In this document: positions 5,029-50,839 of the stretch, one piece after another
Numbering within the stretch: the stretch's first letter is position 1
Layout: each line of letters starts with the position of its first letter
NCBI GenBank assembly: GCA_963664875.1
Contig: OY761611.1
Location: 1,376,001-1,440,000, forward strand
Length of the DNA stretch: 64,000 nt
Direction: 5' to 3'
Source of the DNA: Candidatus Kapaibacterium sp.
GTDB taxonomy: Bacteria; Bacteroidota; Ignavibacteria; Kapaibacteriales; UBA2268
Program-made: the position numbers and the translations under genes
The notes under the pieces: generated by a model
Database searches by the model: none
The model's input: the letters and a program-made list of their open reading frames with translations, nothing else
Told to the model about the DNA's origin: nothing

Positions 5029-5395
5029 AACTCCGAAATCCAAAATCTATTTGCAAAACATACAGTCGTATGAGTCGTAATATTATAATAAGGAAGTATT
5101 TTTGAAATGGTAAATATTGAAGAAATCTATATAATTGGGTGCTCTGACGGGTGACTGGGGAAACAAAAAAAGGTAGAACCTTTACTAGCTCTACCGTTTC
5201 ATTGATACCGAGTACAGAAGGAGGGTGATTAGAATCAAAATGTATCGGATGATTTAACACATTCTTTTTTTGTTTTTCGCTTCCTCTCACAACTGAAAAG
5301 TCAAGAATTCTAAATACTCACTATGCCATCTTCAAATATTTTCGCCCGTTATCTTCAATAATCTGATTTTTCATTATTTGTATCTTTTTCGGAGA

Positions 5396-5498
5396 AGTAA
5401 GCCAATAATTTTTACAAAAATACAAAATTTATGTTTTTTTCTCTTCTGCATTTGAAAGCAATCTTATGCAGGATTAGTTTAGCAAATGGGGATCAATT
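5396..5498 (+). repeat. ~100-bp imperfect direct repeat, copy 1 (left of cas operon)
   Basis: Aligns by eye with 18544-18645 (AGTAAGCCA...ACAAAAATACAAAATTTATGTTTTTT...TTATGCA...TTAGCAAATGG). Confidence 0.85.
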
Positions 5499-5690
5499 TT
5501 AATCGAGAAAATTGGGTTATTTTTTGGAAAATTAAGATATGCAACCCTCAAGGCAGCAATATAAATATCTCATATATGGTTTCCAATTATCATATAATAC
5601 ATTTTTCGAAGGAGATAATCAGTTCTATATGAATTCTAACTTGAAAATAGTTCGTCAAGTTATCCGTTCGCTTTGTAAATCTCAAATCAA

Positions 5691-5864: not shown

Positions 5865-6593
5865 ATGAGAATAGTAGTAGAGTTAGAATCTTCTAATCAT
5901 ATTCTATTACCACATTCTATCAATAGTGTTATACAGTCTTTTTTATATAATGTAGTAAAAGGTGATTCTGAATTTGATGAGATGCACAAAAGTATCAGTT
6001 ATAAAAATTTTACGTTTTCAACGATTCGAGAACGATTCCGAAAAGTAGAAGGTGGAAGACTATATGGAAATTCTATATCTTTTGTCTTCTCAACCAACCA
6101 GCAAACATTAATAAATACATTACTGAACAGTATAATGTTCGCTTCAAATTTAGATTTAGCAGGCAATTCAGTAAGATTCAAATCTGTCTCACCAATTCAG
6201 AAGAAATCCTTTACTACAACCGAGAAAATGAAGACATTAAGTCCAATAACTGTCTACGATGATATTGTGAATTCCGAAGGTAAAAAGTTTAGGAGCTATT
6301 GTTTAGATGTGCATTCTGAAAGATTCACAAGATTACTTCGCAACAATCTGATAAGAAAAGCAAGTAAACTTTATAATTGGGATTTATCGGATTCTGAATT
6401 TGAGATTGAATGCTTATCAAACCCAAAAATTGTCTCTGCGACTTATAAGCATAAGAATAATGTGATTAAAGGCATCGATGCAATATTTAAGCTTACTGGT
6501 GATGAAAGATTGATTCAAGTTGCTTATGAAGTTGGCTTAGGCAGTAAAAATGCTCAGGGTTGGGGTTGTATAGAATTTGCAGGAGAAAAATAA
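5865..6593 (+). CDS. cas6: CRISPR endoribonuclease Cas6
   Basis: C-terminal G-loop GLGSKNAQGWG, TLSPI motif, FTFS; first gene of cas operon. Confidence 0.95.
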   Translation: MRIVVELESSNHILLPHSINSVIQSFLYNVVKGDSEFDEMHKSISYKNFTFSTIRERFRKVEGGRLYGNSISFVFSTNQQTLINTLLNSIMFASNLDLAGNSVRFKSVSPIQKKSFTTTEKMKTLSPITVYDDIVNSEGKKFRSYCLDVHSERFTRLLRNNLIRKASKLYNWDLSDSEFEIECLSNPKIVSATYKHKNNVIKGIDAIFKLTGDERLIQVAYEVGLGSKNAQGWGCIEFAGEK

Positions 6594-8467
6594 TGTTTTT
6601 AAATGCTTTATACGAAATTGGTGAATATCATAAAAAAAACATACTTAACAAAGGTGGTCTTCCTGAGCTCACTTTGAAAGAGGTACAATATCTTCATAAA
6701 ACAGGTACATATCAAAAGGTTGTAATTATGAATATACAAAGTTCCAATAGCACAGTATCCTTTTCAACCGAGGAATTAGAATCGACCGGAGATCACTCTC
6801 TACACTATTTATACAAATATCGTAATGGCTCCCAAGCAGGTAACGAATTTTCTTTTACTAACAAAATAAATATACAAAAAGAAAAGGATAAGAATAAAGA
6901 GAAAGCTGAAATCGATTGGAACAAATTCTTCAACTACTATAAAGCTAACAAAAATTCTTGGATTACTTGGTTAGAAGCTTGCATAGCTGAAGAATTTTAT
7001 CAAACAACTCAAAATATATTAAGAGCAATCATTCAAAATATTGAGAATATCAAATCTTATATTGAGACCTTATTTACGAATGATGATACTTTTAAAAAAG
7101 GCTGCATTTTTACGGTAAAATATAACGGTAAATATTTAAACGAAATCAAAGAGTGCGTTGAATGTTTTGACTATTGTGTGCAAAAACACAATAAGTCAGG
7201 AAACACAGAGCCAAATGTTTGCTGCTCTTTTTGCGGAAGTAACCAAAATGTCAGATATGGTATTCCAGAAGCATTCAAATTCGCAACCATAGATAAAGAA
7301 GGATTCGCAACTGACTTCAATGTTGACACAAATAGGGATTATCCAGTTTGTATCGAATGTCGTACAATCTTGACTTCAGGAAGACAATTTATTGATGATA
7401 ATTTGTCTTATTATTTCCACGGCTTAAAATATAAGGTTGTTCCACACTCTGTTTTTAAATCAGAAGTGTTGCTTGACAATATGTTATATAACTTAAAAGA
7501 AGCCAAAAATCCAAATTTATCTCAAAATCACTCTAATTTTATGTCTGATCCTGATGGTATCATTGAAGAAGCTTCTGAACTAAACAATAGTGTATTGTTA
7601 AATTTAGTGTTTTTATCACAGAAAGGCGTCGGTGGTGAACAAATTGATCTACTTATGCAAGATGTACTTCCAACTCGCTTAGCTGCGATAATAAAAGTAA
7701 AACATGATTTAGAAAATATGTACCCCTATAAAACGAAAGATGGTGAAATTAAACATATGCTTTTCAATATGGGCACAATCTTCAATTTTTACCAACATAA
7801 GAAAAGTAAAAATGCACCATTTGATAAATCATTTTTCGAACTTGTGGAAGCTATATTTAAAGGTGGTAAACTTAATAAAGATTTGATTGTCTCTAAGTTC
7901 ATGGATAAAATTCGGGAAGATGTTTATGAACCAGACAAAAAGCACCCCCATAACTACACTAAAGATTCCATAAGAATAATGCAATTCCTATCAAAATTAG
8001 ATATAGTAGATTTCAAATATAAAGGTAAACCTATGAAAGACAATATTTTCAAAGAATATTTTGAGCAAATAGGCATAGTCGATTCTTCATACTTAGCGGG
8101 CGTAATGCTTATCGGAGCCTTAGTAACCAAAGTTCGTATAGTACAGAAAGAAAATCTGGACAATGATCCCTTCAAGAAAAATCTAAAAGGATACAATTTA
8201 AACCGTGATGAGATTATTTTGCTTGCTAATAAAGTAAAAGCGAAGTTAGAAGAGTATAATGCTTTTAAAGGAACTGAAAATATAATTTTTGGAACTGCTT
8301 TTAAGCTTATGATGGATGCAACTCCAGTATCAAATGCCATGTCAAACTGGTATCTGATTGGTGGCATGAGTTTAGAATATGAAATTATGGGCATAGCAAT
8401 CGAATACCTAAAATCGCAAAAACCAAACTCTCAAGCAGAAGAACAAGAAAGCAATGAATCCAATTAA
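6593..8467 (+). CDS. cas8b: Type I-B large subunit Cas8b (Csh1/TM1802-like)
   Basis: ATG overlaps cas6 stop (TAATG); CSFCG...FKFATIDKEGF...YPVCIEC zinc motif; position between cas6 and cas7. Confidence 0.88.
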   Translation: MFLNALYEIGEYHKKNILNKGGLPELTLKEVQYLHKTGTYQKVVIMNIQSSNSTVSFSTEELESTGDHSLHYLYKYRNGSQAGNEFSFTNKINIQKEKDKNKEKAEIDWNKFFNYYKANKNSWITWLEACIAEEFYQTTQNILRAIIQNIENIKSYIETLFTNDDTFKKGCIFTVKYNGKYLNEIKECVECFDYCVQKHNKSGNTEPNVCCSFCGSNQNVRYGIPEAFKFATIDKEGFATDFNVDTNRDYPVCIECRTILTSGRQFIDDNLSYYFHGLKYKVVPHSVFKSEVLLDNMLYNLKEAKNPNLSQNHSNFMSDPDGIIEEASELNNSVLLNLVFLSQKGVGGEQIDLLMQDVLPTRLAAIIKVKHDLENMYPYKTKDGEIKHMLFNMGTIFNFYQHKKSKNAPFDKSFFELVEAIFKGGKLNKDLIVSKFMDKIREDVYEPDKKHPHNYTKDSIRIMQFLSKLDIVDFKYKGKPMKDNIFKEYFEQIGIVDSSYLAGVMLIGALVTKVRIVQKENLDNDPFKKNLKGYNLNRDEIILLANKVKAKLEEYNAFKGTENIIFGTAFKLMMDATPVSNAMSNWYLIGGMSLEYEIMGIAIEYLKSQKPNSQAEEQESNESN

Positions 8468-8485
8468 TAAAGTATAGGCAATAAC

Positions 8486-9439
8486 ATGAGTAATATTAAA
8501 TCTTCAGAAATCATATTTTTATATGACTTAGAAAAATGCAATCCAAATGGTGATCCAATAGCCAACAACTTACCAAGAATAGATGAAGAAACATCAAAAG
8601 TTTATGCAACCGATGTTTTTCTTAAGCATCATATAAGAGAGTACATGTATCAGAATACAATTCCGAAATTAGATGGTAATTTTGACATCTGGGTCAGAGA
8701 TACAAGAGAAGAAAATGGTGGGAAAGTAGTTGATGCAAAGAAGAGATATGAAAGTCTTAATATAAGTGCAAAAGATGATAAAGCTAAAGAAGAATTCTTA
8801 GAAAGATGCCTAGATGCACAAATGTTCGGTGCAGTAGTACCACTAAAAAAGGAAAACTATCATTTAACTGGAGCTTGGCAGTTTATGAATATCAAATCTT
8901 TACATCAAGTAGATGTAATTACAGATAAAGGTATTACTACTTTTGCTTCAGGTGATAATAAATCTCAAGGAACTTTCAGAGAAGATCACTACGTGAATTA
9001 TGCTTTGATGCAATCATATAGCAGAGTAAATGCAAATGCTGCCGAGAAAAATCTATTAAAACAAGAAACTTTAGATGCTGGTTTAGAAGCTATGTGGTAT
9101 GGAATCAAAAATTTAAATACACGTAGTAAATTGGGTCATGATTCTAAGTTACTTTTAGTTGTAGAATACAAAACAAACAATCGTTTTATTGGAAACAAAC
9201 TTAACAATTCCATAACTCTCACACTTAAGGATGGTGTAATCACAGAGAAAGGTATCAGAGCAGGTTCTGATTATAACCTTAATATGGATGCTTTACAAAA
9301 TCTATTAGTATCGAATAAATCTATTATCCACAAAATTAAATTTCACTACGAAGCTCATGATCCTCACGTTTCTTCATTTAAGGATTTTAAAGCTAATTTA
9401 CAAAAAGAAGGTATAGAGATTGAAGATTTAAAATACTAA
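8486..9439 (+). CDS. cas7: Type I-B Cas7b (Csh2)
   Basis: NPNGDP..NLPRID, TDVFLKHHIREY, DAQMFGAV, TRSK motifs. Confidence 0.93.
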   Translation: MSNIKSSEIIFLYDLEKCNPNGDPIANNLPRIDEETSKVYATDVFLKHHIREYMYQNTIPKLDGNFDIWVRDTREENGGKVVDAKKRYESLNISAKDDKAKEEFLERCLDAQMFGAVVPLKKENYHLTGAWQFMNIKSLHQVDVITDKGITTFASGDNKSQGTFREDHYVNYALMQSYSRVNANAAEKNLLKQETLDAGLEAMWYGIKNLNTRSKLGHDSKLLLVVEYKTNNRFIGNKLNNSITLTLKDGVITEKGIRAGSDYNLNMDALQNLLVSNKSIIHKIKFHYEAHDPHVSSFKDFKANLQKEGIEIEDLKY

Positions 9440-9448
9440 GGTGAAAAA

Positions 9449-10156
9449 ATGAAAGTTCTCATTTTCGAAATAAGTGGTGAGTTTGCACATTTCAAACCTT
9501 ATGATACAACTTCAACCAAGCTAAGTTACCCATTCCCAACTCCACCAACTGTTTTAGGAATGATTGGTGCCATTTTAGGTTTGTCAAAGCAAGATCAGCA
9601 GTATCTAAAAATATTGAACGATGCTAATACTAAAGTAGCTGTTTCAATTTTGAACCCAGTCAAAAAGTTACATTGGGGCTTAAATCTTCTAAATACAAAA
9701 GGTAACATTGTTGACTTATCTAACGGTCATACTCAAGTATTGACCGAGTTTATTAAAGATGCTCGTTATAGAATTATTGTGTCAATGGAAAAGCAAGATT
9801 TATATAATTCTCTCAAAGAAAGATTAGAAAAGAAAGAGTCTTATTATGATCTGTGCTTGGGTATCACAGAATGTTTAGCTGACTTTGAATTTGTAGGAGA
9901 ATACGAAGCAAGTCTGAACAAATATAATTCTATCGAAGTAGATTCTGTTATACCCATAGACGAATCAATCGAAAACAAGATAGACTTTACATCAGTACAA
10001 GAAAAAATAACAATGCCAAGAATACCATATAAAATGGAAGTAGGAAGAATTGCATCTTATAGGAATGTACTTGTGAACGAAGGAGCCAAACCAATAGCAA
10101 TAAAAAATATAGAATGTTATACGACTGATGTTTGCAATTTCTTGTTTTTGAATTGA
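9449..10156 (+). CDS. cas5: Type I-B Cas5b
   Basis: GEFAHFK...SYPFPTPPTVLGMIGAILG; LCLGITECLA. Confidence 0.93.
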   Translation: MKVLIFEISGEFAHFKPYDTTSTKLSYPFPTPPTVLGMIGAILGLSKQDQQYLKILNDANTKVAVSILNPVKKLHWGLNLLNTKGNIVDLSNGHTQVLTEFIKDARYRIIVSMEKQDLYNSLKERLEKKESYYDLCLGITECLADFEFVGEYEASLNKYNSIEVDSVIPIDESIENKIDFTSVQEKITMPRIPYKMEVGRIASYRNVLVNEGAKPIAIKNIECYTTDVCNFLFLN

Positions 10157-10157
10157 T

Positions 10158-12494
10158 ATGATTATGTTACTATCTCATCCAGACACTATATTATCAGACC
10201 ACCTCGAAGGAGTGCTGCTCAATTCTGTTCGTATGTACGAAGAAATGAATATCACTTCTTCATATGGTGTTGATTATTTAAAAGTTGTAAAGTTGGTAGC
10301 TTTGTTTCACGATTTCGGGAAGTGTACTAATTATTTCCAAAATTATATTCGTGGAGATAAAAGTGGAAGTTCTCTTTTAAGACAACATTCCATATTAAGT
10401 GCTATTGTAGTTTCACATTTAGTTATATCAGTTGTTGAAAGTAAACATGCAGAAGAACTTTCACTTTATGCTTTTCTCTCAGTATTGTATCATCATGGTA
10501 ATCTTAATAACTTATATAATAAATTGCTTGGAATCAATAGCAATGATACAATTGTATTACTCAGCCAACAAATAAATGCAGTATCCTTTGATTCAGTAAA
10601 CGAATGCTATAATCCACTGCTCAAAGATTACTTATCTATTGATATCACTTTTACGGCTGAAAAGCTGACAGAATATATTGATACTCTAAAATCTTCAATA
10701 CGTAAACTCAACAAAACTTTAAGGAAAATAAAAGAAACAAACTCTTTTGAATCTTATCTGCATTTGATGACATTCTGGTCTTTACTTGTTGATGCAGATA
10801 AAAAACATGCAAACTTCAAAGAGGTATTGCAAAAGCATTCGTCTAAAATTGATACAGATGCTGCTAAAAAGTACATTATGAAATTTCCAAAAGACGAATC
10901 ACCGATGTGTAAACTTAGAACAGAAGCTTTTGAGACAGTTGAACAGAATATTCTAAAATCATCAGACAAAGCTGATATTTTTAGCGTAGAATTGCCTACC
11001 GGAGCAGGAAAGACACTAAACGTTTTGAATGCAGCACTTCGATTGAGAAATAAAAGGTATGATGAAACCGGGAAGTACAAAAAAATTATAAACGGTCTGC
11101 CGTTTTTATCAATCATTGATCAAACAGCAAAAGTCTATAGAGACGTATTTGATTTAGATGACAGCAATTCAGATGTTATGACTGTTCAGCACTCTTTGGC
11201 TGACTATTCCTTATTCAAACAGGGGGATGTCGAATATAAAGATGATTCCAGAGCGGAGATGCTAATCGAAACATGGGAATCTGAGATAATAGTTACCACA
11301 TTTGTGCAAATATTCCATACCTTGTTTACCAATAAAAACGGCAATGCAAGGAAATTCCATACAATATCCAATTCAATTTTAGTATTAGATGAGGTTCAAG
11401 CTATTCCTTCTAAATATCATAAACTTGTAAATGAGATGTTTCAAGCTTTAGTTAAAGTTTACAACACTGATATTATTACAATGACTGCTACTAATATTTA
11501 CGAGTTCGATAATGCAAAACGTTTATGTGATGCTACATTTTATAATGACTTAGATAGAATTGTTTTGAAATATTTTGATGATGTACTAACAGTCGAAGAA
11601 TTCTTTCAAAAGCTTGATTTGCAGGCAGACAAATCTTATATGTTTGTTATGAATACAATCAAAAGTGCTAAAATACTGCACCAATTGCTGTCTGATTCAC
11701 TACAGGAAGAAGTTGCCTTCTTATCGACAGAGATTATTCCATTTCAGAGATTAGGTATCATATCTGATATTAAGAATAAAAAATATAGATTTTTGGTTAC
11801 AACGCAACTTATCGAAGCTGGAGTAGATGTTACATTTGATGTTGTCTATCGTGATATGACCAGAATGGATTCAATTGTGCAAACAGCAGGCAGATGTAAT
11901 AGGCATTACACAGATAAACAAGGAGAAGTAAATGTTATTAAGCTGAAAGACAAAAGAAAAGAGTATGCAGAGTATATTTATGATTCAATGGACTTATTCC
12001 AAACATCTGAAACGCTTAAAACATATCTTGATGGACAGAACATGATTCGAGAATCTAATTTTTACAATCTAATAAAAGACTTTAGTGCAAAACTACAGGC
12101 AAAAACAACAGATTCAAATGCTTATATTGAAGCAGTAAATCAGTTAAAATTTATCAACTCACAGGAAGACAAATATAATATTGCAACATTCAAACTGATA
12201 GATAATTCTGATTATGAGAAAATAGATGTGTTTGTAGAGTATAATCAGGAAGCCGTTGATATTTGGCAAAAGTATATGCAAATCAAGAAAATTGAAAATA
12301 GATTTGACAGGAAACTACAGTTTAAGCTTATTAAAAATATCTTCCAGAAGTATGTGATTAGCGTTTCAAAGCAAAGATATTGTACGGATTCAAATGCAGA
12401 TGGATTATATTATATACCGCAAGGGCAATTAGAATTTTCATATGGGAAGGTCGGTTTCATGGGATTTGGGCTTGAAGCAAATAATATAATTTAG
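10158..12494 (+). CDS. cas3: Cas3 HD nuclease-helicase
   Basis: FHDFGK, HHG, LVDAD (HD); LPTGAGKT, LDEVQ, MTAT, TQLIEAGVD, QTAGRCNR (SF2). Confidence 0.95.
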   Translation: MIMLLSHPDTILSDHLEGVLLNSVRMYEEMNITSSYGVDYLKVVKLVALFHDFGKCTNYFQNYIRGDKSGSSLLRQHSILSAIVVSHLVISVVESKHAEELSLYAFLSVLYHHGNLNNLYNKLLGINSNDTIVLLSQQINAVSFDSVNECYNPLLKDYLSIDITFTAEKLTEYIDTLKSSIRKLNKTLRKIKETNSFESYLHLMTFWSLLVDADKKHANFKEVLQKHSSKIDTDAAKKYIMKFPKDESPMCKLRTEAFETVEQNILKSSDKADIFSVELPTGAGKTLNVLNAALRLRNKRYDETGKYKKIINGLPFLSIIDQTAKVYRDVFDLDDSNSDVMTVQHSLADYSLFKQGDVEYKDDSRAEMLIETWESEIIVTTFVQIFHTLFTNKNGNARKFHTISNSILVLDEVQAIPSKYHKLVNEMFQALVKVYNTDIITMTATNIYEFDNAKRLCDATFYNDLDRIVLKYFDDVLTVEEFFQKLDLQADKSYMFVMNTIKSAKILHQLLSDSLQEEVAFLSTEIIPFQRLGIISDIKNKKYRFLVTTQLIEAGVDVTFDVVYRDMTRMDSIVQTAGRCNRHYTDKQGEVNVIKLKDKRKEYAEYIYDSMDLFQTSETLKTYLDGQNMIRESNFYNLIKDFSAKLQAKTTDSNAYIEAVNQLKFINSQEDKYNIATFKLIDNSDYEKIDVFVEYNQEAVDIWQKYMQIKKIENRFDRKLQFKLIKNIFQKYVISVSKQRYCTDSNADGLYYIPQGQLEFSYGKVGFMGFGLEANNII

Positions 12495-12620
12495 TCGTCT
12501 GGCTCGTATAATACAAAAATCACTGAACCTCGACGACTTATTTATTGGAGTTTGAGATACTTTTCTAATGCTACGAACGATACGATTTATTAAAATAGCT
12601 TGTTCTTTGAAAATTTGAGG
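12495..12620 (+). promoter_or_regulatory. CRISPR leader containing boxA-like GTTCTTTGAAAA (12602-12613)
   Basis: Non-coding gap between cas3 and first repeat; degenerate repeats are at the opposite end; same 12-mer occurs in both rrn leaders. Confidence 0.8.
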
Positions 12621-13244
12621 ATAGAAATACCTGCTATAAGCAGGGATGATTTGTCAGATTGTTCGCCTCTGATGCTGTTAGCTGTATAGAAATACCTGCT
12701 ATAAGCAGGGATGATGGTATATCACGAGTTGGTACACCACCATCGTAGGTATAGAAATACCTGCTATAAGCAGGGATGATGATGCAGTTGATATTGATAT
12801 TGAACCGACAGAGCAAATAGAAATACCTGCTATAAGCAGGGATGATATAGTGGTTTATAACAATGGTGAAAAAGTTACTTTTGAATAGAAATACCTGCTA
12901 TAAGCAGGGATGATTCAATTCTTTCTGGTCTATCTAATCCGAATAATTCTATAGAAATACCTGCTATAAGCAGGGATGATATGTTCTTTATGTACTTCAT
13001 TCCACTTGGAAAGTTCATAGAAATACCTGCTATAAGCAGGGATGATGGATTAAACAAAGCTCTAAAATCGCAAGGTCGTTCAATAGAAATACCTGCTATA
13101 AGCAGGGATGATTTTTCTAATTCTCCTATATAAAAAAAGCGGTCTGTATAGAAATACCTGCTATAAGCAGGGATGATTTAAGTAAGCATACATACTAAGG
13201 CAACCTGCTTCTTGATAGAAATACCTGCTATAAGCAGGGATGAT
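12621..13244 (+). CRISPR. Array segment 1: chimeric repeat ATAGAAATACCTGCTATAAGCAGGGATGAT, 10 copies (10th is the IS junction), 9 spacers
   Basis: Repeats start at 12621, 12686, 12751, 12817, 12885, 12951, 13017, 13083, 13148, 13215; spacers 35-38 nt. Confidence 0.97.
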
Positions 13245-14426
13245 TTGTTCTTTGTAAATATCATATAATATAGTAAATTATAGAAAGCCAAACACAAACT
13301 TTTCTAATCTGGGGGGATTTATGGAAAAGCAAACGTTAGTAAATTATCTTGATAAGTTGACAGATAAGCGTCGCAGGGAAGGCACACGCCATAATCAATC
13401 ATTTGTATTATTGCTGGTTTTGATGGCGACTATGAGCGGACAATATGGCTATCGTGGCATAGAAAGATTTATAAAGAAGAATGCCGAAGACATACTGAAA
13501 TATTTAAAGCCTCATAAAGATAGATTACCAACTTACGCAACAATTTTTAGAGTGGTAAATAATATAGATTTTGATGAATTTGCACAGATTTTTAAAGAGT
13601 GGTCAAAAGTTTATGCAAAGCCTCAAAGCGGTGAAATAATCAGTATAGATGGCAAAGCTTTGAAAGGCACATTAGTAGAATACAATTCGAAATACCAGAA
13701 CTTTATAAGCATTGTTTCTGCACATTCTCAATCAAGTAAAATGTCACTAAGTATAAGCAAATATGAGAATAAAAAATCAAGCGAGATAAGCGTAGTTGAA
13801 GAAATGATTAGAGATTTAGAACTGACTGGCGTAGTCTTTACAATGGATGCTTTACACTGTCAAAAAAACTCTAAGAACAATTGTTAGTACTAACAACAAC
13901 TATATTATTTGCGTAAAAAAGAATCAAGGTCGTTTGTACAAAGAACTGGAGAGTTTGAGTTCGAGCTGGTCAACAAAGATCGATTATTATAAAACCGAAG
14001 AAACTAATAGAGACAGACGAGAAACTCGTAAAGTATATGTATATTCATTAAACGATAAAATTAAGAACGAGTGGTCCGGATCACAGCAATTAGTAAAGGT
14101 ACAAAGGATTAGAAAAACAAAACAAATGCAGGAAGTTCATGTACATTATTATTTGAGCAGTCAAGAAAAACCAGCAAAGTATTATATGCAGAGCATACGA
14201 GGACATTGGGGCATTGAAAACCAGCTACATTGGGTAAAGGATGTGGTAATGAAAGAAGATGCTTGGAAAGTGAGAAATACACAAGCAGCTTCAGTCATGA
14301 GTATAATAAAGTCAATTTGTATCAATATTTTTAGGTCAAAGAAGCGTATTGATTGTACCAACTTTTTCTATGAGACTGCCGACAATGTAGAACTATTGGT
14401 GACTTTGTTAGAATGAATCAACCCTG
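13235..14426 (+). mobile_element. ISAs1-family IS, copy 1 (1192 bp)
   Basis: Ends CAGGGATGATTTGTTCT / AGAATGAATCAACCCTG (14/17 inverted match); 10-bp duplication CTGCTATAAG at 13225-13234 and 14427-14436. Confidence 0.95.
13321..14416 (+). CDS. ISAs1 DDE transposase split in two frames (13321-13887, 13847-14416)
   Basis: IDGKALKG, KSSEI, TMDALHCQK, VKKNQ, IRGHWGIENQLHWVKDVVMKED; frame break at A7 run 13862-13868. Confidence 0.9.
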
Positions 14427-14965
14427 CTGCTATAAGGGGTTTAAACTAAAAGGCAATAAGCTGTATTTGACGTTAGGACTTGATAGAAATACCTGCTATA
14501 AGGGGTTTAAACTTTGGTAATGATGCTAAGAGCTGCAGCACATCACTAATAGAAATACCTGCTATAAGGGGTTTAAACGAAGGCAGCCATGATGACATGG
14601 TAGATGCGACAACAATAGAAATACCTGCTATAAGGGGTTTAAACTTATTTCACCTCTGTGATAAAATTTTCAGCACTAAGATAGAAATACCTGCTATAAG
14701 GGGTTTAAACAATTCTAATGAATATTCTTTAGCTGTTTCCCGTGCAAATAGAAATACCTGCTATAAGGGGTTTAAACGAAATTAAAGAAAAAAAACTATT
14801 AGATTTTGCTGAATAGAAATACCTGCTATAAGGGGTTTAAACTAGACTTCAACTGAGACATAAACTGAGAAATATTAAATAGAAATACCTGCTATAAGGG
14901 GTTTAAACCATTCATTAAAAACTTACAATAAAAAAGCATGGAAAAATAGAAATACCTGCTATAAG
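14427..14965 (+). CRISPR. Array segment 2: original repeat ATAGAAATACCTGCTATAAGGGGTTTAAAC, 7 full repeats plus two IS-split halves, 8 spacers
   Basis: Full repeats at 14483, 14549, 14615, 14681, 14748, 14813, 14879. Confidence 0.97.
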
Positions 14966-16157
14966 CAGGGATGATTTGTTCTTTGTAAATATCATATAAT
15001 ATAGTAAATTATAGAAAGCCAAACACAAACTTTTCTAATCTGGGGGGATTTATGGAAAAGCAAACGTTAGTAAATTATCTTGATAAGTTGACAGATAAGC
15101 GTCGCAGGGAAGGCACACGCCATAATCAATCATTTGTATTATTGCTGGTTTTGATGGCGACTATGAGCGGACAATATGGCTATCGTGGCATAGAAAGATT
15201 TATAAAGAAGAATGCCGAAGACATACTGAAATATTTAAAGCCTCATAAAGATAGATTACCAACTTACGCAACAATTTTTAGAGTGGTAAATAATATAGAT
15301 TTTGATGAATTTGCACAGATTTTTAAAGAGTGGTCAAAAGTTTATGCAAAGCCTCAAAGCGGTGAAATAATCAGTATAGATGGCAAAGCTTTGAAAGGCA
15401 CATTAGTAGAATACAATTCGAAATACCAGAACTTTATAAGCATTGTTTCTGCACATTCTCAATCAAGTAAAATGTCACTAAGTATAAGCAAATATGAGAA
15501 TAAAAAATCAAGCGAGATAAGCGTAGTTGAAGAAATGATTAGAGATTTAGAACTGACTGGCGTAGTCTTTACAATGGATGCTTTACACTGTCAAAAAAAC
15601 TCTAAGAACAATTGTTAGTACTAACAACAACTATATTATTTGCGTAAAAAAGAATCAAGGTCGTTTGTACAAAGAACTGGAGAGTTTGAGTTCGAGCTGG
15701 TCAACAAAGATCGATTATTATAAAACCGAAGAAACTAATAGAGACAGACGAGAAACTCGTAAAGTATATGTATATTCATTAAACGATAAAATTAAGAACG
15801 AGTGGTCCGGATCACAGCAATTAGTAAAGGTACAAAGGATTAGAAAAACAAAACAAATGCAGGAAGTTCATGTACATTATTATTTGAGCAGTCAAGAAAA
15901 ACCAGCAAAGTATTATATGCAGAGCATACGAGGACATTGGGGCATTGAAAACCAGCTACATTGGGTAAAGGATGTGGTAATGAAAGAAGATGCTTGGAAA
16001 GTGAGAAATACACAAGCAGCTTCAGTCATGAGTATAATAAAGTCAATTTGTATCAATATTTTTAGGTCAAAGAAGCGTATTGATTGTACCAACTTTTTCT
16101 ATGAGACTGCCGACAATGTAGAACTATTGGTGACTTTGTTAGAATGAATCAACCCTG
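14966..16157 (+). mobile_element. ISAs1-family IS, copy 2 (1192 bp, apparently identical to copy 1)
   Basis: Same ends, same length, identical translated ORFs; duplication CTGCTATAAG at 14956-14965 and 16158-16167. Confidence 0.95.
15052..16147 (+). CDS. ISAs1 transposase split in two frames (15052-15618, 15578-16147)
   Basis: Same proteins as copy 1; A7 run at 15593-15599. Confidence 0.9.
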
Positions 16158-18490
16158 CTGCTATAAGGGGTTTAAACTTGAGATATTATTGTAAAATTGT
16201 GATTATTTGATTTCATAGAAATACCTGCTATAAGGGGTTTAAACGAGTGCAAAGTGTTCCATTCTTGTCGAGCCATACGGAATAGAAATACCTGCTATAA
16301 GGGGTTTAAACCTAATATATATTTTCATTATTCACTCCTAAATTGATAATAGAAATACCTGCTATAAGGGGTTTAAACACTACTGTGTTGAAAGATATGT
16401 TAAATGCCATATCAGATAGAAATACCTGCTATAAGGGGTTTAAACATATATTCAGTAAGAAGTTTTAAACAAGACCCATTAATAGAAATACCTGCTATAA
16501 GGGGTTTAAACTTTATAATGTCGTAATCTTTGTTAGCCTGAATGTTAATAGAAATACCTGCTATAAGGGGTTTAAACTCTGCTTCCTTATGTGATTTGCG
16601 GGTAGTACTACTATAGAAATACCTGCTATAAGGGGTTTAAACGCAAAGTTGTGCATTTTAGAAGCGACTGGCAACTCATAGAAATACCTGCTATAAGGGG
16701 TTTAAACTCGTTTTGATGCCGTTTACAACTGTGCCGATGCCTGCATAGAAATACCTGCTATAAGGGGTTTAAACGCAGCTGCAACCGGGTCATCGAGCGA
16801 TACATTGAATATAGAAATACCTGCTATAAGGGGTTTAAACATGCTTTTTGATATATTATTTGGCATTTGCAATTGAATAGAAATACCTGCTATAAGGGGT
16901 TTAAACAAGTTTGGAGTTTTCAATTTCATGTCTTCGAACAAATAGAAATACCTGCTATAAGGGGTTTAAACAAATTGATTTGAACGGCGTTGCATTCAGC
17001 ACGTCAAATAGAAATACCTGCTATAAGGGGTTTAAACACGTTTGCGGCTCTAATGCCTGCTTTTAAAAAGCTCAATAGAAATACCTGCTATAAGGGGTTT
17101 AAACGTAGATTATACTTCGGAGGAATCAGTAGAATTGATAATAGAAATACCTGCTATAAGGGGTTTAAACTTAACGAATTGGTCATTAACATAACCGATT
17201 GTTTGCGGATAGAAATACCTGCTATAAGGGGTTTAAACTGTTGAAGAGGAATGGAAGCATATTACTTGTCCTCGATAGAAATACCTGCTATAAGGGGTTT
17301 AAACGAATCAATCTCAATAAACAATATATTACTTTTAGTAATAGAAATACCTGCTATAAGGGGTTTAAACTGTTGAAGAGGAATGGAAGCATATTACTTG
17401 TCCTCGATAGAAATACCTGCTATAAGGGGTTTAAACAAAGCTGTGCCGGGGTTCGCTTAAATCTCTGATAAATAGAAATACCTGCTATAAGGGGTTTAAA
17501 CATCACTAATGAAGTCAGATTGAAGGTAGCTCGTTCGATAGAAATACCTGCTATAAGGGGTTTAAACTTGGCTGAACCGCTACGAGGCAATGGTATTGAT
17601 TTAATAGAAATACCTGCTATAAGGGGTTTAAACATGAATGCCGAGGCAGTAGAGGGGCGTGCAAGGCGTATAGAAATACCTGCTATAAGGGGTTTAAACG
17701 ACGTTCTGATATTAAGTCTTTGTCCAATCTGTACGAATAGAAATACCTGCTATAAGGGGTTTAAACAATATTGTTTTGTTAAAAGCTATCTCGAAAACTA
17801 TAATAGAAATACCTGCTATAAGGGGTTTAAACTCGTTTTTACCTGTTTTTTCTTTTGTTCCATTTTGATAGAAATACCTGCTATAAGGGGTTTAAACGTA
17901 ACTCCGTGCCAATCTCACTAAATATATTTGCATATAGAAATACCTGCTATAAGGGGTTTAAACTCAAAACTCTTAATCATATCAATACCGACTTCACTTA
18001 TAGAAATACCTGCTATAAGGGGTTTAAACCAATATTTCGAGCAGATACGAAACGATGCCGAGTTTATAGAAATACCTGCTATAAGGGGTTTAAACTTGTC
18101 AGCTATTGACAAAATGCTCAATGAAGCAGAATAGAAATACCTGCTATAAGGGGTTTAAACAATTCTGAAACATATTTTGCAATTTTTTTTAGTTTTATAG
18201 AAATACCTGCTATAAGGGGTTTAAACTTGACTACATTGTTTTCTTTACATATTCTAAATACCTATAGAAATACCTGCTATAAGTGGTTTAAACATCGAAA
18301 CTTACGGCAATGTAGCGACTGCTCTGAATATAGAAATACCTGCTATAAGGGGTTTAAACACAGTTAAAAGGTTTACTTGTCATGTGATAATAGAATAGAA
18401 ATACCTGCTATAAGGGGTTTAAATTGTGCTGACTGTATCGAATTTACGGTAGAAAATGAAATAGAAATACCTGCTATAAGGAGTTTAATT
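16158..18490 (+). CRISPR. Array segment 3: original repeat, 35 full repeats plus IS-split half, 35 spacers
   Basis: Repeats from 16215 to 18461; trailer-end variants at 18264 (G>T), 18395 (ends AAAT), 18461 (GAGTTTAATT) give + orientation. Confidence 0.97.
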
Positions 18491-18543
18491 GAATATCGGT
18501 GGTGCAATTTATTAAGGAGAAAATACCACATTTATTTCAGTGC

Positions 18544-18645
18544 AGTAAGCCACTAATTTTGACAAAAATACAAAATTTATGTTTTTTATCTTCAGCATTT
18601 GTAGTCAATTTTATGCAAGACTAGTTAGCAAATGGAAGGTCAATT
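18544..18645 (+). repeat. ~100-bp imperfect direct repeat, copy 2 (right of array)
   Basis: Matches 5396-5498. Confidence 0.85.
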
Positions 18646-18707
18646 CTCGGAGGGAATTGTCAAAAGAATCAAGCACTATTGTTTTACTTCTGCTATTTTT
18701 TTAAATT

Positions 18708-19661
18708 ATGATAATATTTAGTCAACTAAAAACGGATTTCATCATGTCAAAAAATACAATTCCATCAAATTCAGCAATTGATTTCCAACATCTCTTCAAC
18801 GAGTTGGTGTATCATTACTTCCCTACTCCAATGATTAATTATCATCTTGAGCGATTTGAAACAAAAGATGATAAGATCCTTTATTTAAAAGAAATGCAAA
18901 TTCGTTTTTATCATCTAACACTAATAAAATGTGACTATTGCGAACAGACAAAAGATATACCATTACTTCATACAGAAGCACGACCGAATTTCCATGATTA
19001 TCGTATAAGTATCAGTAATGTTAAAGTTGATGATAACTTCAAGCACTACATCTACGGACCACTCAAATTCAATGATGTAGAAGCTACAAAAGTATTTAAC
19101 AGATTTGATATACTTCTAAACAGAACACTCATGCTGTTCAAACCTGATCCGACGTTTTTAACGAACTGGGAAGAAGTAAAGGGACATCTGCAAAATATTA
19201 GTTCTGTCAAGAACAAAAAGAAGTATTTGCTGCAATTAAACTCAAACTTCAACAACCACCCTCATTATTGGGGCACAAGAGAAGAACAGGAATCTTTCAA
19301 GAAATTGCTTTCTGCAAAATATCAAAAACTTAAGCAGATAGTATTTGAAGCAAGTGCAGAACCAACATTCAAAAAACAAGAAAAAGTTGAATCCCAAAAT
19401 TTGGAAAAGCAGAGAGCTGAACAAACAACAAGTTCTGACAGAGCAAAACAAAAAACATCTTTTGCAGAGAACAATTCCAATGACTTCATAAAAATAGAGG
19501 AAGTAACGCAAATACTAAAAATTTGCAAACCTACAGTTTACAGCTATCGCAATAAAGGTTTGATACAGTCATACAAAATGGGTAGAAATGTCTATTATAA
19601 AAGAAGTGAAATCTTTGAAGCACTAAATAATGGCAAAGTAAAGTATGGTAAAACTAAGTAA
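18708..19661 (+). CDS. Protein with C-terminal excisionase/MerR-like HTH
   Basis: FIKIEEVTQILKICKPTVYSYRNKGLIQSYKMGRNVYYKRSEI. Confidence 0.8.
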   Translation: MIIFSQLKTDFIMSKNTIPSNSAIDFQHLFNELVYHYFPTPMINYHLERFETKDDKILYLKEMQIRFYHLTLIKCDYCEQTKDIPLLHTEARPNFHDYRISISNVKVDDNFKHYIYGPLKFNDVEATKVFNRFDILLNRTLMLFKPDPTFLTNWEEVKGHLQNISSVKNKKKYLLQLNSNFNNHPHYWGTREEQESFKKLLSAKYQKLKQIVFEASAEPTFKKQEKVESQNLEKQRAEQTTSSDRAKQKTSFAENNSNDFIKIEEVTQILKICKPTVYSYRNKGLIQSYKMGRNVYYKRSEIFEALNNGKVKYGKTK

Positions 19662-42045: not shown

Positions 42046-42203
42046 CAATACAACGCAAATATAAAATATTTATTGCTATCGTACCAAATATTTTTTTATA
42101 TCCTCCAAAGATAATTTGAAGGCAATTTCCACATATTCTCTGGACTCCCATAAACGCAAAAAAGTCTGCATAAACTAATATACAGACTTTTTTAAAAAAA
42201 GAA

Positions 42204-42319
42204 TCCGGCAGCGACCTACTCTTCCACGCAGTCACCCACGCAGTACCATCGGCGCAACAGGTCTTAACTACTCTGTTCGGAAAGGGAAGAGGTGTAGCCC
42301 CTGTGCCATAGCCACCGGA
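42204..42319 (-). rRNA. rrf: 5S rRNA, operon A
   Basis: CCGAAC loop, GATGGTACT, AGAGTAGGTCG; ends approximate. Confidence 0.95.
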
Positions 42320-42437
42320 AAAAAAGATTTATATAAGGAAGTAAAATACGTTTATATAGAGCAAAAGGAATAAAGATGAAACAATATAATAATTTGTAAG
42401 TCTAAAGAGATTGGTATAACAACTCAAAACTATTATT

Positions 42438-45253
<2,816 letters not shown>

Positions 45254-45453
45254 GAATTAGTTTTGAGTTGTTATACTAATCTCTTCGACGCAAATTATTA
45301 AGTTTCATACTTACATTTATATCTTTGCAGATACTTTTGGCTCTATTGTATTTTACTTTACTGCCTTTGTATGGGCAGTAACACCTTAATTGTCAAATAA
45401 CTTTTCAATTTTGTAAATTTTCTTACAGGAATGCGCTTAGCATCCATTGTTTG

Positions 45454-47166: not shown

Positions 47167-47580
47167 TTTATATAAAGAATTGTTATTCTCTGTTTATTTG
47201 CTTGTGAGTTTGATCACAAAAATTGTTTTACTCTTTTTAATTGACTGTGCTTCCTGTTTTCAAAGAACGCCGATTCGCATTCAATTGCAAGTTCAAAATT
47301 AAGAACTTTTTCTGTTCTTCACAAATTAATATTTAAAAACTTAATCAGCCTCTTCAATATTAACTCGCCTTCATTACCTGCTTTCTTAGAACGTCTTTTC
47401 TTTCCCTTCATCGCGGGACAGAATTCAAAACTACGGACTTTTTTTTAAATCTCCAAATTTTATTTTTAGATTTTTTTCCGCCTCATAGTGCTGAAGTTTG
47501 ATCTCGCGTGAGATGCTTGCTTTAGAGTAAAAAACCCTTATCACTTTTGAAGTGAGAAGGGTTAATTCTCAATATTAGAA

Positions 47581-47696
47581 TCCGGCAGCGACCTACTCTT
47601 CCACGCAGTCACCCACGCAGTACCATCGGCGCAACAGGTCTTAACTACTCTGTTCGGAAAGGGAAGAGGTGTAGCCCCTGTGCCATAGCCACCGGA
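47581..47696 (-). rRNA. rrf: 5S rRNA, operon B
   Basis: Same sequence as operon A copy. Confidence 0.95.
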
Positions 47697-47824
47697 AAAA
47701 AAGATTTATATAAGGAAGTAAAATACGTAATATATAGAGCAAAAGTATAATAGAAGTAAGAGATGAAACAATATAATAATTTGTAAGTCTAAAGAGATTG
47801 GTATAACAACTCAAAACTATTATT

Positions 47825-50639
<2,815 letters not shown>

Positions 50640-50839
50640 GAATTAGTTTTGAGTTGTTATACTAATCTCTTCGACGCAAATTATTAAGTTTCATACTTAC
50701 ATTTATATCTTTGCAGATACTTTTGGCTCTATTGTATTTTACTTTACTGCCTTTGTATGGGCAGTAACACCTTAATTGTCAAATAACTTTTCAATTTTGT
50801 AAATTTTCTTACAGGAATGCGCTTAGCATCCATTGTTTG

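What the first reader, a model, noticed from the sequence alone, without database searches (positions are those of the whole stretch)
13225..16177. ISAs1 element inserted twice at the same nucleotide of the repeat
Both copies have the same orientation and duplicate the same 10 bp (CTGCTATAAG, repeat positions 11-20), with 8 unique spacers between, so this is not a simple segmental duplication. The duplication leaves 20 nt of repeat 5' end upstream and an intact 3' 20 nt downstream, so flanking crRNAs may survive. Repeats upstream of copy 2 are normal, so copy 2 entered an internal repeat. Suggests an IS with preference for this repeat as a multi-copy landing site.
Basis: partly seen in the sequence, partly recalled or inferred. 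Interest (0 to 1): 0.75.

Follow-up and report, generated by a model that had tools for sequence, protein, structure and literature searches.

The report
Transposon end copied into CRISPR repeats
A small jumping gene that likely aims at short G/C hairpins sits twice at the same base of a CRISPR repeat, and its first ten bases now form the tail of the nine newest repeats, likely copied there by the cell's own spacer-inserting enzymes.

Summary
Observation confirmed: two identical 1,192-bp ISAs1 copies (13235-14426, 14966-16157), same orientation, same 10-bp duplication, 8 spacers between. Five of 7 genomic copies lie elsewhere: 4 in a REP-like hairpin (one inside a spacer of a second array whose 273 repeats are untouched), 1 in a gene. 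All 11 non-repeat sites scored (this genome and a congener) read C-N8-G|GG; the repeat has that motif once, at positions 11-20, one strand, which explains the shared base and orientation. Two hits remain mildly more than expected. The finding leaves out the stranger part: the nine leader-side repeats are hybrids (repeat 1-20 plus IS bases 1-10), still exactly 30 bp; a relative strain has the native first repeat. This fits ruler-directed repeat copying, shown by mutagenesis in Haloarcula. IS in CRISPR repeats (IS6110) and REP-targeting IS are known; ISAs1 REP targeting and a propagated IS-derived repeat were not found in my searches. The scan noted a single chimeric repeat in another genome (e1-2453904) and this block itself (e1-6536224). 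Whether the hybrid repeats yield working crRNA is untested.

The parts
5865..12494 (+). Type I-B effector operon cas6, cas8b (TM1802), cas7 (Csh2), cas5h, cas3; no cas4/cas1/cas2
   Evidence: the only cas1 of the genome is at C1:2155714-2156493 beside the second array
12495..12620 (+). Leader (126 bp) between cas3 and the first repeat
   Evidence: degenerate repeats lie at the far end (units 52, 54, 55); a relative strain has cas3-leader-native repeat on one contig (X6)
12621..13214 (+). Nine hybrid repeats (native repeat 1-20 + IS bases 1-10, 30 bp) with nine spacers of 35-38 bp
   Evidence: also in contigs of studies P1 and P2
13215..13234 (+). 5' 20 bp of the interrupted repeat 10; 13225-13234 is the left target duplication
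13235..14426 (+). ISAs1 copy 1, 1,192 bp, CAGGG...CCCTG ends
13321..14416 (+). Transposase in two overlapping frames (13321-13887, 13847-14416), +1 break at an A7 run at 13862-13868
   Evidence: same A7 run in the 81% relative, A8 or an unbroken frame in other relatives
14427..14446 (+). Right target duplication and 3' 20 bp of repeat 10
14447..14945 (+). Eight unique spacers with seven native repeats
14946..14965 (+). 5' 20 bp of the second interrupted repeat; 14956-14965 is the left target duplication
14966..16157 (+). ISAs1 copy 2, identical to copy 1
16158..16177 (+). Right target duplication and 3' 20 bp of the second interrupted repeat
16178..18490 (+). Older part of the array, 35 native repeats, degenerate at the trailer end

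Best explanation
Two copies of an ISAs1 element sit at the one place in the repeat that matches the C-N8-G|GG pattern shared by its other sites, likely from two transposition events of an element that mainly targets REP-like hairpins, and the copy at the leader-side repeat likely had its first ten bases duplicated nine times by Cas1-Cas2. Steps: (1) shown: most copies sit in short GC-stem palindromes, and the repeat offers exactly one matching site, on one strand, centred on its own weak dyad; (2) inferred: 44 tandem copies of that site in non-coding DNA make the array a secondary target, perhaps helped by local hopping; (3) shown: copy 2 has native repeats upstream, so it entered an internal repeat; (4) inferred: copy 1 entered the first repeat, or became first after spacer loss, so the 30 bp behind the leader became repeat 1-20 plus IS end; (5) inferred: the genome's only Cas4-Cas1-Cas2, from the other locus, kept measuring 30 bp and copied the hybrid with each of nine new spacers; (6) predicted: the hybrid changes the 8-nt crRNA handle from GUUUAAAC to GGGAUGAU and forms a new 6-bp stem, so the nine newest spacers are probably poorly processed.
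For: 7 copies in the genome, 6 identical, 1 at 99.6%. 4 of 20 REP-like hairpins filled. In the second array the copy lies in a spacer that carries the REP hairpin, none of 273 repeats is hit, and that repeat has no C-N8-GGG on either strand. All 11 non-repeat sites scored (5 own, 6 of 9 from G001; 3 left out because their flanks are not a duplication pair) read C-N8-G|GG in IS orientation (listing); the native repeat has this motif only at position 11, forward strand. A matrix trained without the repeat ranks registers 11 and 12 highest in the repeat and in the top 0.07-0.19% of genome positions. Among 78 related loci, 30 had an exact duplication of 7 bp or more and 24 of these 30 (19 of the 25 that are not the congener's copies) start with C and end G|GG, counted by eye. 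One of the 78 (L076, 34% protein identity) abuts an 85-repeat array at the same kind of G|GG position. Hybrid block: 9 of 9 repeats carry IS base 10 at position 30, and in 6 of 9 the next base differs from the next older unit, so copying was 30 bp; spacer lengths and GC match the native part. Relative strain X6 has the native 3' end after repeat 1-20 behind the leader. Base 30 of the second array's repeat changes in uninterrupted blocks (T, 102 A, 9 G, T), so the same machinery propagates distal changes. In Haloarcula type I-B, mutants of repeat positions 21-25 and 26-30 were still duplicated at 30 bp (PMC4872114, sections 13-14 read).
Against: Two hits are more than a sequence rule alone predicts under most settings: P(2 or more of 7) is 0.0009 over all 6,448 oriented C-N8-GGG sites, 0.026 over the 1,110 outside long ORFs, 0.11 for centred CC-N8-GG and 0.56 for the strictest centred-palindrome rule; the matrix gives the repeats at most 0.1% of total weight. 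The motif was read off by eye with the repeat already in view. Transposition and repeat-mediated copying give the same product and cannot be told apart here. The L076 case has no matching duplication on its other side and the missing junction was not found in that genome, so it may be rearranged or mis-joined. No second propagated hybrid was found in 400 genomes of the own phylum, 200 cyanobacterial genomes plus the centre, or 5 chosen genomes. No RNA data.
Confidence: 0.7

Rival explanations
1. One transposition into a repeat, then a second copy made by repeat-mediated recombination or template switching, using the 20 bp of repeat on each side to paste repeat-IS-repeat into another repeat. 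The hybrid propagation would be unchanged.
For: Gives the same base and orientation by necessity and removes the residual excess. The array does rearrange through its repeats: one spacer occurs twice, at 17239 and 17371. Two REP copies have left duplications whose two loop bases are inverted, which looks like conversion between IS copies.
Against: Needs two exchanges on 20-bp arms around 1.2 kb; the element is recently mobile (6 identical copies); the target rule already predicts base and orientation.
Confidence: 0.15
2. The element is specialised for this CRISPR repeat as a safe multi-copy landing site.
For: 2 of 7 copies in 0.035% of the genome; a distant relative also abuts a CRISPR repeat.
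Against: 5 of 7 copies elsewhere; fill rate 4 of 20 in REP hairpins against 2 of 44 repeats; 0 of 273 repeats in array 2; 0 of 9 congener copies in repeats; 1 of 78 related loci next to an array. No array with this repeat in 129 other genomes of the family or in the metagenome scan, while the IS clade is widespread.
Confidence: 0.06
3. Insertion is drawn to the leader-side repeat while it is bent or nicked for spacer uptake; both copies entered what was then the first repeat, and native repeats between them were restored by conversion.
For: Copy 1 sits at what was the first of about 44 repeats, a 1-in-44 position if all repeats are equal.
Against: Copy 2 has seven native repeats upstream, which needs an extra conversion event; internal insertion followed by loss of upstream spacers also puts an IS at the first repeat.
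Confidence: 0.06
4. Assembly artefact: one copy placed twice, or two strains merged.
For: Copies are identical; no short-read contig spans a copy with both flanks.
Against: Single-contig complete genome; different spacers flank each copy; spacer 17 joined to the IS start and spacer 9 joined to the IS start are both seen in contigs, the first in two studies.
Confidence: 0.03

Closest known systems
IS6110 in the direct-repeat (CRISPR) locus of the Mycobacterium tuberculosis complex (PMC7820667, passages read)
   Same: An IS splits a CRISPR repeat with a target duplication; the junction looks like an atypical repeat made of part repeat and part IS end; some strains have two copies between three array pieces; the locus is called a hot spot.
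   Different: IS3 family with a 3-bp duplication; in the passages read the atypical repeat is the single junction, not a block of new repeats. Here the junction was copied nine times with new spacers.
REP-targeting insertion sequences (IS1397, ISKpn1, IS621, ISPsy8, ISPpu9/10, ISRm22; PMC1525189, passages read)
   Same: Most copies break a palindromic extragenic repeat at one fixed point.
   Different: That survey lists families IS3, IS110, IS4, IS256 and IS5 and does not contain the word ISAs1. Here the element is ISAs1, the duplication is the hairpin core itself (10 bp; 11-19 bp in relatives), and loosely matching sites such as a CRISPR repeat are also used.
Ruler-directed repeat duplication in type I-B adaptation (Haloarcula hispanica; PMC4872114, abstract and sections 13-14 read)
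   Same: 30-bp repeat; duplication starts at the leader junction and ends sequence-independently; changed distal bases are copied into new repeats.
   Different: Those are engineered mutants followed for days; this is a natural case caused by a transposon, with nine successive events, apparently by Cas1-Cas2 from another locus with a different repeat. The G run moved by 2 bp here without changing the length in at least 6 of 9 events.
IS insertion into cas genes as a way to inactivate CRISPR immunity (PMC10359306, passages read)
   Same: IS activity damages a CRISPR locus.
   Different: That work concerns cas genes and does not mention ISAs1; here the cas genes have open frames and the array is hit.

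Membership tests
ISAs1 family IS | Transposase matching the ISAs1 family model | tested here: met
   NF033564 above cut-off for both halves; PF13808 and PF01609
ISAs1 family IS | About 1.2-1.5 kb with short terminal inverted repeats starting CAGGG (recalled family traits) | tested here: met
   1,192 bp; ends CAGGGATGAT and CAGGGTTGAT (reverse complement)
ISAs1 family IS | Target duplication of about 8-10 bp (recalled) | tested here: met
   10 bp; exact in 4 of 7 copies, 1-2 mismatches in 3
ISAs1 family IS | Single uninterrupted transposase frame | tested here: not met
   +1 break at an A7 run; shared by the 81% relative, with A7, A8 or unbroken frames across the 15 relatives read, which suggests programmed slippage and not decay
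REP-targeting IS | Most copies lie in a palindromic extragenic repeat family at a fixed point | tested here: met
   4 of 7 own copies in one 20-member hairpin family; most congener copies in similar hairpins
REP-targeting IS | The transposase itself chooses the target | not testable with these tools
   needs a transposition assay
Dedicated CRISPR-repeat-targeting element | Most copies, here and in relatives, lie in CRISPR repeats | tested here: not met
   2 of 7 own, 0 of 9 congener, 1 of 78 related loci
Type I-B CRISPR-Cas | cas6, cas8b, cas7, cas5, cas3 with a 30-bp repeat array | tested here: met
   TIGR01877, TIGR02556, TIGR02590, TIGR02592, cas3 models
Type I-B CRISPR-Cas | Linked cas4-cas1-cas2 | tested here: not met
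   absent at this locus; one Cas1b (TIGR03641) with cas4 and cas2 about 0.77 Mb away
Ruler-directed copying of a changed first repeat | Variant repeats form one block at the leader end and match the 30 bp behind the leader at the time of change | tested here: met
   9 hybrids, all leader-side, identical to the copy-1 junction; native first repeat in a relative strain
Ruler-directed copying of a changed first repeat | Cas1-Cas2 shown to integrate at the hybrid repeat | not testable with these tools
   needs an adaptation assay

The most novel reading that the evidence does not exclude
A transposon end has been taken over as a working CRISPR repeat: the IS terminus pairs with the repeat's own bases to give a stronger hairpin, the host Cas6 and Cascade accept it, and the nine newest spacers are active. 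Hairpin-seeking ISAs1 elements would then be a recurring source of abrupt new repeat families. The mirror case is as testable: one insertion at the first repeat leaves memory writing intact but makes every later memory unreadable.
Probability: 0.2. Interest if true: 0.75.

Novelty: new variant of a known kind. Interest (0 to 1): 0.45.

Why it matters
The double insertion itself is a by-product of a target rule. Two things around it matter more. First, an ISAs1 clade with REP-hairpin targeting and 10-19-bp duplications adds a family to the known REP-targeting IS and explains which CRISPR repeats are at risk. Second, the hybrid block is a natural record of nine spacer uptakes after a third of the repeat was replaced: it shows in a wild genome that the distal 10 bp are not needed for uptake, that one Cas1-Cas2 can serve two unlike repeats, and how a repeat sequence can jump in one step. 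Native and hybrid repeats lie in one array under one leader, so one small-RNA library would show whether uptake and crRNA processing have become uncoupled.

Tried and rejected
Missing middle block in study P2: run X2 had no cover at 14500-14975, but X3 of the same sample holds spacer 17 and all runs have holes elsewhere; rejected. Self-targeting as a sign of dead crRNAs: 0 of 9 hybrid-era spacers and 0 of the other 43 match the chromosome outside arrays at full length; two old spacers match spacers of array 2; uninformative. Protospacers: the hybrid block against 50,697 phage records gave only chance-level matches (E 0.2-0.6); the rest of the array was not searched; no PAM could be read. 32-bp over-copying from the shifted G run: only the two oldest events share two extra bases with the older unit, 6 of 9 share none; rejected as the rule. 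Other arrays with this repeat: none in 129 family genomes (6 had one isolated match each); the metagenome scan gave one non-array match. Second propagated hybrid: hits were other tandem repeats or native repeats, judged from the matched text only; the pattern finds only CAGGG-type ends (AGGG) in three successive units. L056 was a tandem repeat, not CRISPR. Rfam: no match at 12400-18800. Leader alignment by MAFFT was out of register and not used. Promoter scan was at shuffle level (6 against 8.6). No RNA holder listed. Literature: 9 searches; ISAs1 + REP + target site gave 0 papers; none of the listings or passages seen described a propagated IS-derived repeat; subscription papers, ISfinder pages and all supplements were not seen.
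Full report
Observation. The array behind cas3 has 53 repeats and 52 spacers. Two identical 1,192-bp elements lie at 13235-14426 and 14966-16157 on the + strand. Each follows repeat bases 1-20 and is followed by bases 11-30, so CTGCTATAAG is duplicated. Eight different spacers and seven native repeats lie between them. Both reading frames match the ISAs1 model above cut-off. Contigs of short-read runs from two studies carry the junction of spacer 17 with the IS start, and the leader with the first hybrid repeat; none spans a whole copy, and one study may be the source of the assembly.

Where the other copies are. The genome is one complete contig with 7 full copies, 6 identical and 1 at 99.6%. 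Two are in this array. Four are in a REP-like family whose first hairpin is CCCCTC-NN-GAGGGG; 16 further members are empty. One of these four is inside a spacer of the second array: the spacer carries the hairpin, and none of that array's 273 repeats is hit. The seventh interrupts a gene at CCTGAATGGG|GG. Of 40 relatives searched, one congener (G001) has 9 copies at 81% identity and another a 58-bp trace. The G001 flanks are mostly similar hairpins and none of the flanks read is a CRISPR repeat. So the fill rate is 4 of 20 for REP hairpins, 2 of 44 for native repeats of this array and 0 of 273 for the other array.

Why the same base and orientation. I listed 11 sites outside the repeat: 5 own and 6 of the 9 from G001; three were left out because their two flanks are not a duplication pair. 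All 11 read C-N8-G|GG in the element's orientation. I read this by eye with the repeat in view, so it is not a blind test. The native repeat has the motif once, starting at position 11 on the forward strand, and not on the reverse strand; the second array's repeat has none. The predicted weak stem of the native repeat (10-12 with 19-21) is centred on the same point. A symmetric matrix trained without the repeat puts registers 11 and 12 on top within the repeat and in the best 0.07% (8 distinct sites) or 0.19% (G001 only) of genome positions. A protein search of species genomes kept 78 loci from the best 80 of 134 confirmed. Both ends were called in 62, and 30 had an exact duplication of 7 bp or more: 10 bp (5), 11 (6), 12 (5), 14 (2), 19 (12). 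By eye 24 of the 30 begin with C and end G|GG; five of the 30 repeat the congener's copies, leaving 19 of 25. Many lie in CCCC...GGGG hairpins. One of the 78 loci (L076, a Desulfobacterales bin, 34% identity) abuts an array of 85 repeats after repeat base 27, again at G|GG; its other flank is a different hairpin, and the missing junction was not found, so that case is weaker.

How much chance is left. Against random sequence two hits in the array are far beyond chance. Against the target rule the answer depends on the rule: P(2 or more of 7) is 0.0009 over all 6,448 oriented motif sites, 0.026 over the 1,110 outside ORFs of 120 codons or more, 0.11 for centred CC-N8-GG (42 of 512) and 0.56 with a third stem pair (42 of 166). 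The matrix gives the repeats at most 0.1% of the weight. A mild excess probably remains; local hopping, repeat-mediated copying or selection of this window for the feature could each supply it.

What the finding leaves out. The nine repeats between the leader and copy 1 all read repeat 1-20 plus CAGGGATGAT, the first ten IS bases, which is exactly the copy-1 junction. The leader is on this side: degenerate repeats are at the far end, and a wastewater relative about 93% identical has cas3, leader and repeat 1-20 followed by the native end GGGTTTAAA on one contig (X6; one contig, depth 3). All nine have IS base 10 at position 30, and in 6 of 9 the next base differs from that of the next older unit, so 30 bp were copied; spacer lengths (35-38) and GC (36% against 35%) match the native part. 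The locus has no cas4, cas1 or cas2, nor does the X6 contig between cas3 and the repeat; the only cas1 (type I-B) lies beside the second array. I infer that it acted in trans. In that second array base 30 changes in unbroken blocks (T, 102 A, 9 G, T), which fits the same copying of whatever follows the leader. In Haloarcula hispanica, mutants of repeat bases 21-25 and 26-30 were duplicated at 30 bp (PMC4872114; abstract and sections 13-14 read; supplements not seen). A related ruler is reported for type II-A (PMC6895254, abstract only) and type I-E (PMC5039180, listing only).

Function of the hybrid. The hybrid folds into a 6-bp stem (10-15 with 19-24; -8.7 kcal/mol, z -3.1) against -4.1 (z -0.85) for the native repeat; in spacer context the hybrid stem has mean pairing probability 0.72 over 9 units against 0.43 for the native stem. 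From general knowledge of type I-B (recalled), Cas6 cuts 8 nt from the 3' end; the handle would change from GUUUAAAC to GGGAUGAU, and the new stem ends 6 nt from the end. I therefore expect poor processing, with the nine spacers carried along while the large second array does the work. Against this, nine uptakes are shared by samples of two studies, which could mean selection. No RNA run is listed, no protospacer was found.

The transposase. The gene is broken by a +1 shift at an A7 run. The 81% relative has the same run; among 15 relatives read, 3 have A7, 8 have A8, and 4 have the run broken by G and an open frame. This points to programmed slippage (inferred; PMC1088944 seen as listing only) and fits six identical recent copies.

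Comparison with what is known. IS6110 splits the M. tuberculosis repeat, leaves an atypical part-IS repeat and occurs twice in some arrays (PMC7820667, passages). REP-targeting IS are known in five families, ISAs1 not among them in the paper read (PMC1525189, passages). IS hits in cas genes are surveyed in PMC10359306 (passages). A Sulfolobales review calls IS in arrays rare (PMC4390879, passages); PMC3184786 (passages) added nothing specific. Nine searches showed no ISAs1-REP report and no propagated IS-derived repeat; the library lacks most subscription papers. Pattern searches of 400 genomes of the phylum, 200 cyanobacterial genomes plus the centre and 5 chosen genomes found no second hybrid block, so it is rare or missed by the pattern. 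The scan has an unchecked note on a single chimeric repeat in another genome (e1-2453904) and a first-reader note on this block (e1-6536224); I had seen the block before these look-ups.

Verdict. The double insertion is real and mostly explained by hairpin targeting; the repeat is a secondary site. The lasting interest lies in the ISAs1 target rule and in the nine-fold copied hybrid repeat, a new variant of known processes. Interest 0.45.

Noticed in passing
G000:C1:2078469-2079660 and 2173057-2174248: Both copies inserted in the forward direction of the REP have a left duplication whose two loop bases are inverted (AA left, TT right), while all 16 empty REPs have one loop orientation; possibly conversion from the oppositely inserted copies or a template switch during gap repair. 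L110 shows a similar inverted pair.
   Followed up: partly
L090, L094-L097, L099, L100, L102-L104, L107, L109: Cyanobacterial ISAs1 relatives of about 1.3 kb have exact 19-bp target duplications, far longer than the 8-10 bp I recall for the family.
   Followed up: partly
G146 (L119-L146): A family of 122-124-bp MITEs with the ends of the local ISAs1; 6 of 8 pairs listed have 11-12-bp duplications in CCCC...GGGG hairpins.
   Followed up: partly
L179 (G146:C35), about 3,600 bp into the reverse strand: A second, unrelated insert of about 140 bp with an internal inverted repeat splits another repeat of the same 85-repeat array, and a similar one sits at the array's far end.
   Followed up: no
G000:C1:2157125-2176350: Second array of 273 repeats whose 30th base changes in unbroken blocks; two old spacers of the window's array match its spacers at 100% (35 bp) and 94% (36 bp).
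   Followed up: partly
window 5382-5510 and 18530-18660: A diverged direct repeat of about 130 bp (88% over the best 58 bp) brackets the whole cas-CRISPR locus, as if the module came in as a cassette.
   Followed up: no
It may be another element at the same site in a co-occurring strain, or a mis-join.
   Followed up: no
G000:C1:3618111-3619302: The seventh copy interrupts a gene just before a C-terminal hydrophobic tail that resembles a PEP-CTERM/IPTL-type sorting signal (label recalled).
   Followed up: no
G000:C1:2074000-2091000 (L003): A duplicated segment carries the IS in the same REP in both copies but in opposite orientations; a third copy of the REP context at 2056693 is empty.
   Followed up: partly
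window 17239-17274 and 17371-17406: The same spacer occurs twice, two units apart.
   Followed up: no
window 42189-45300 and 47566-50700: Two near-identical copies of a long ORF-poor segment 5.4 kb apart, probably tandem rRNA operons (identity as rRNA not tested).
   Followed up: no
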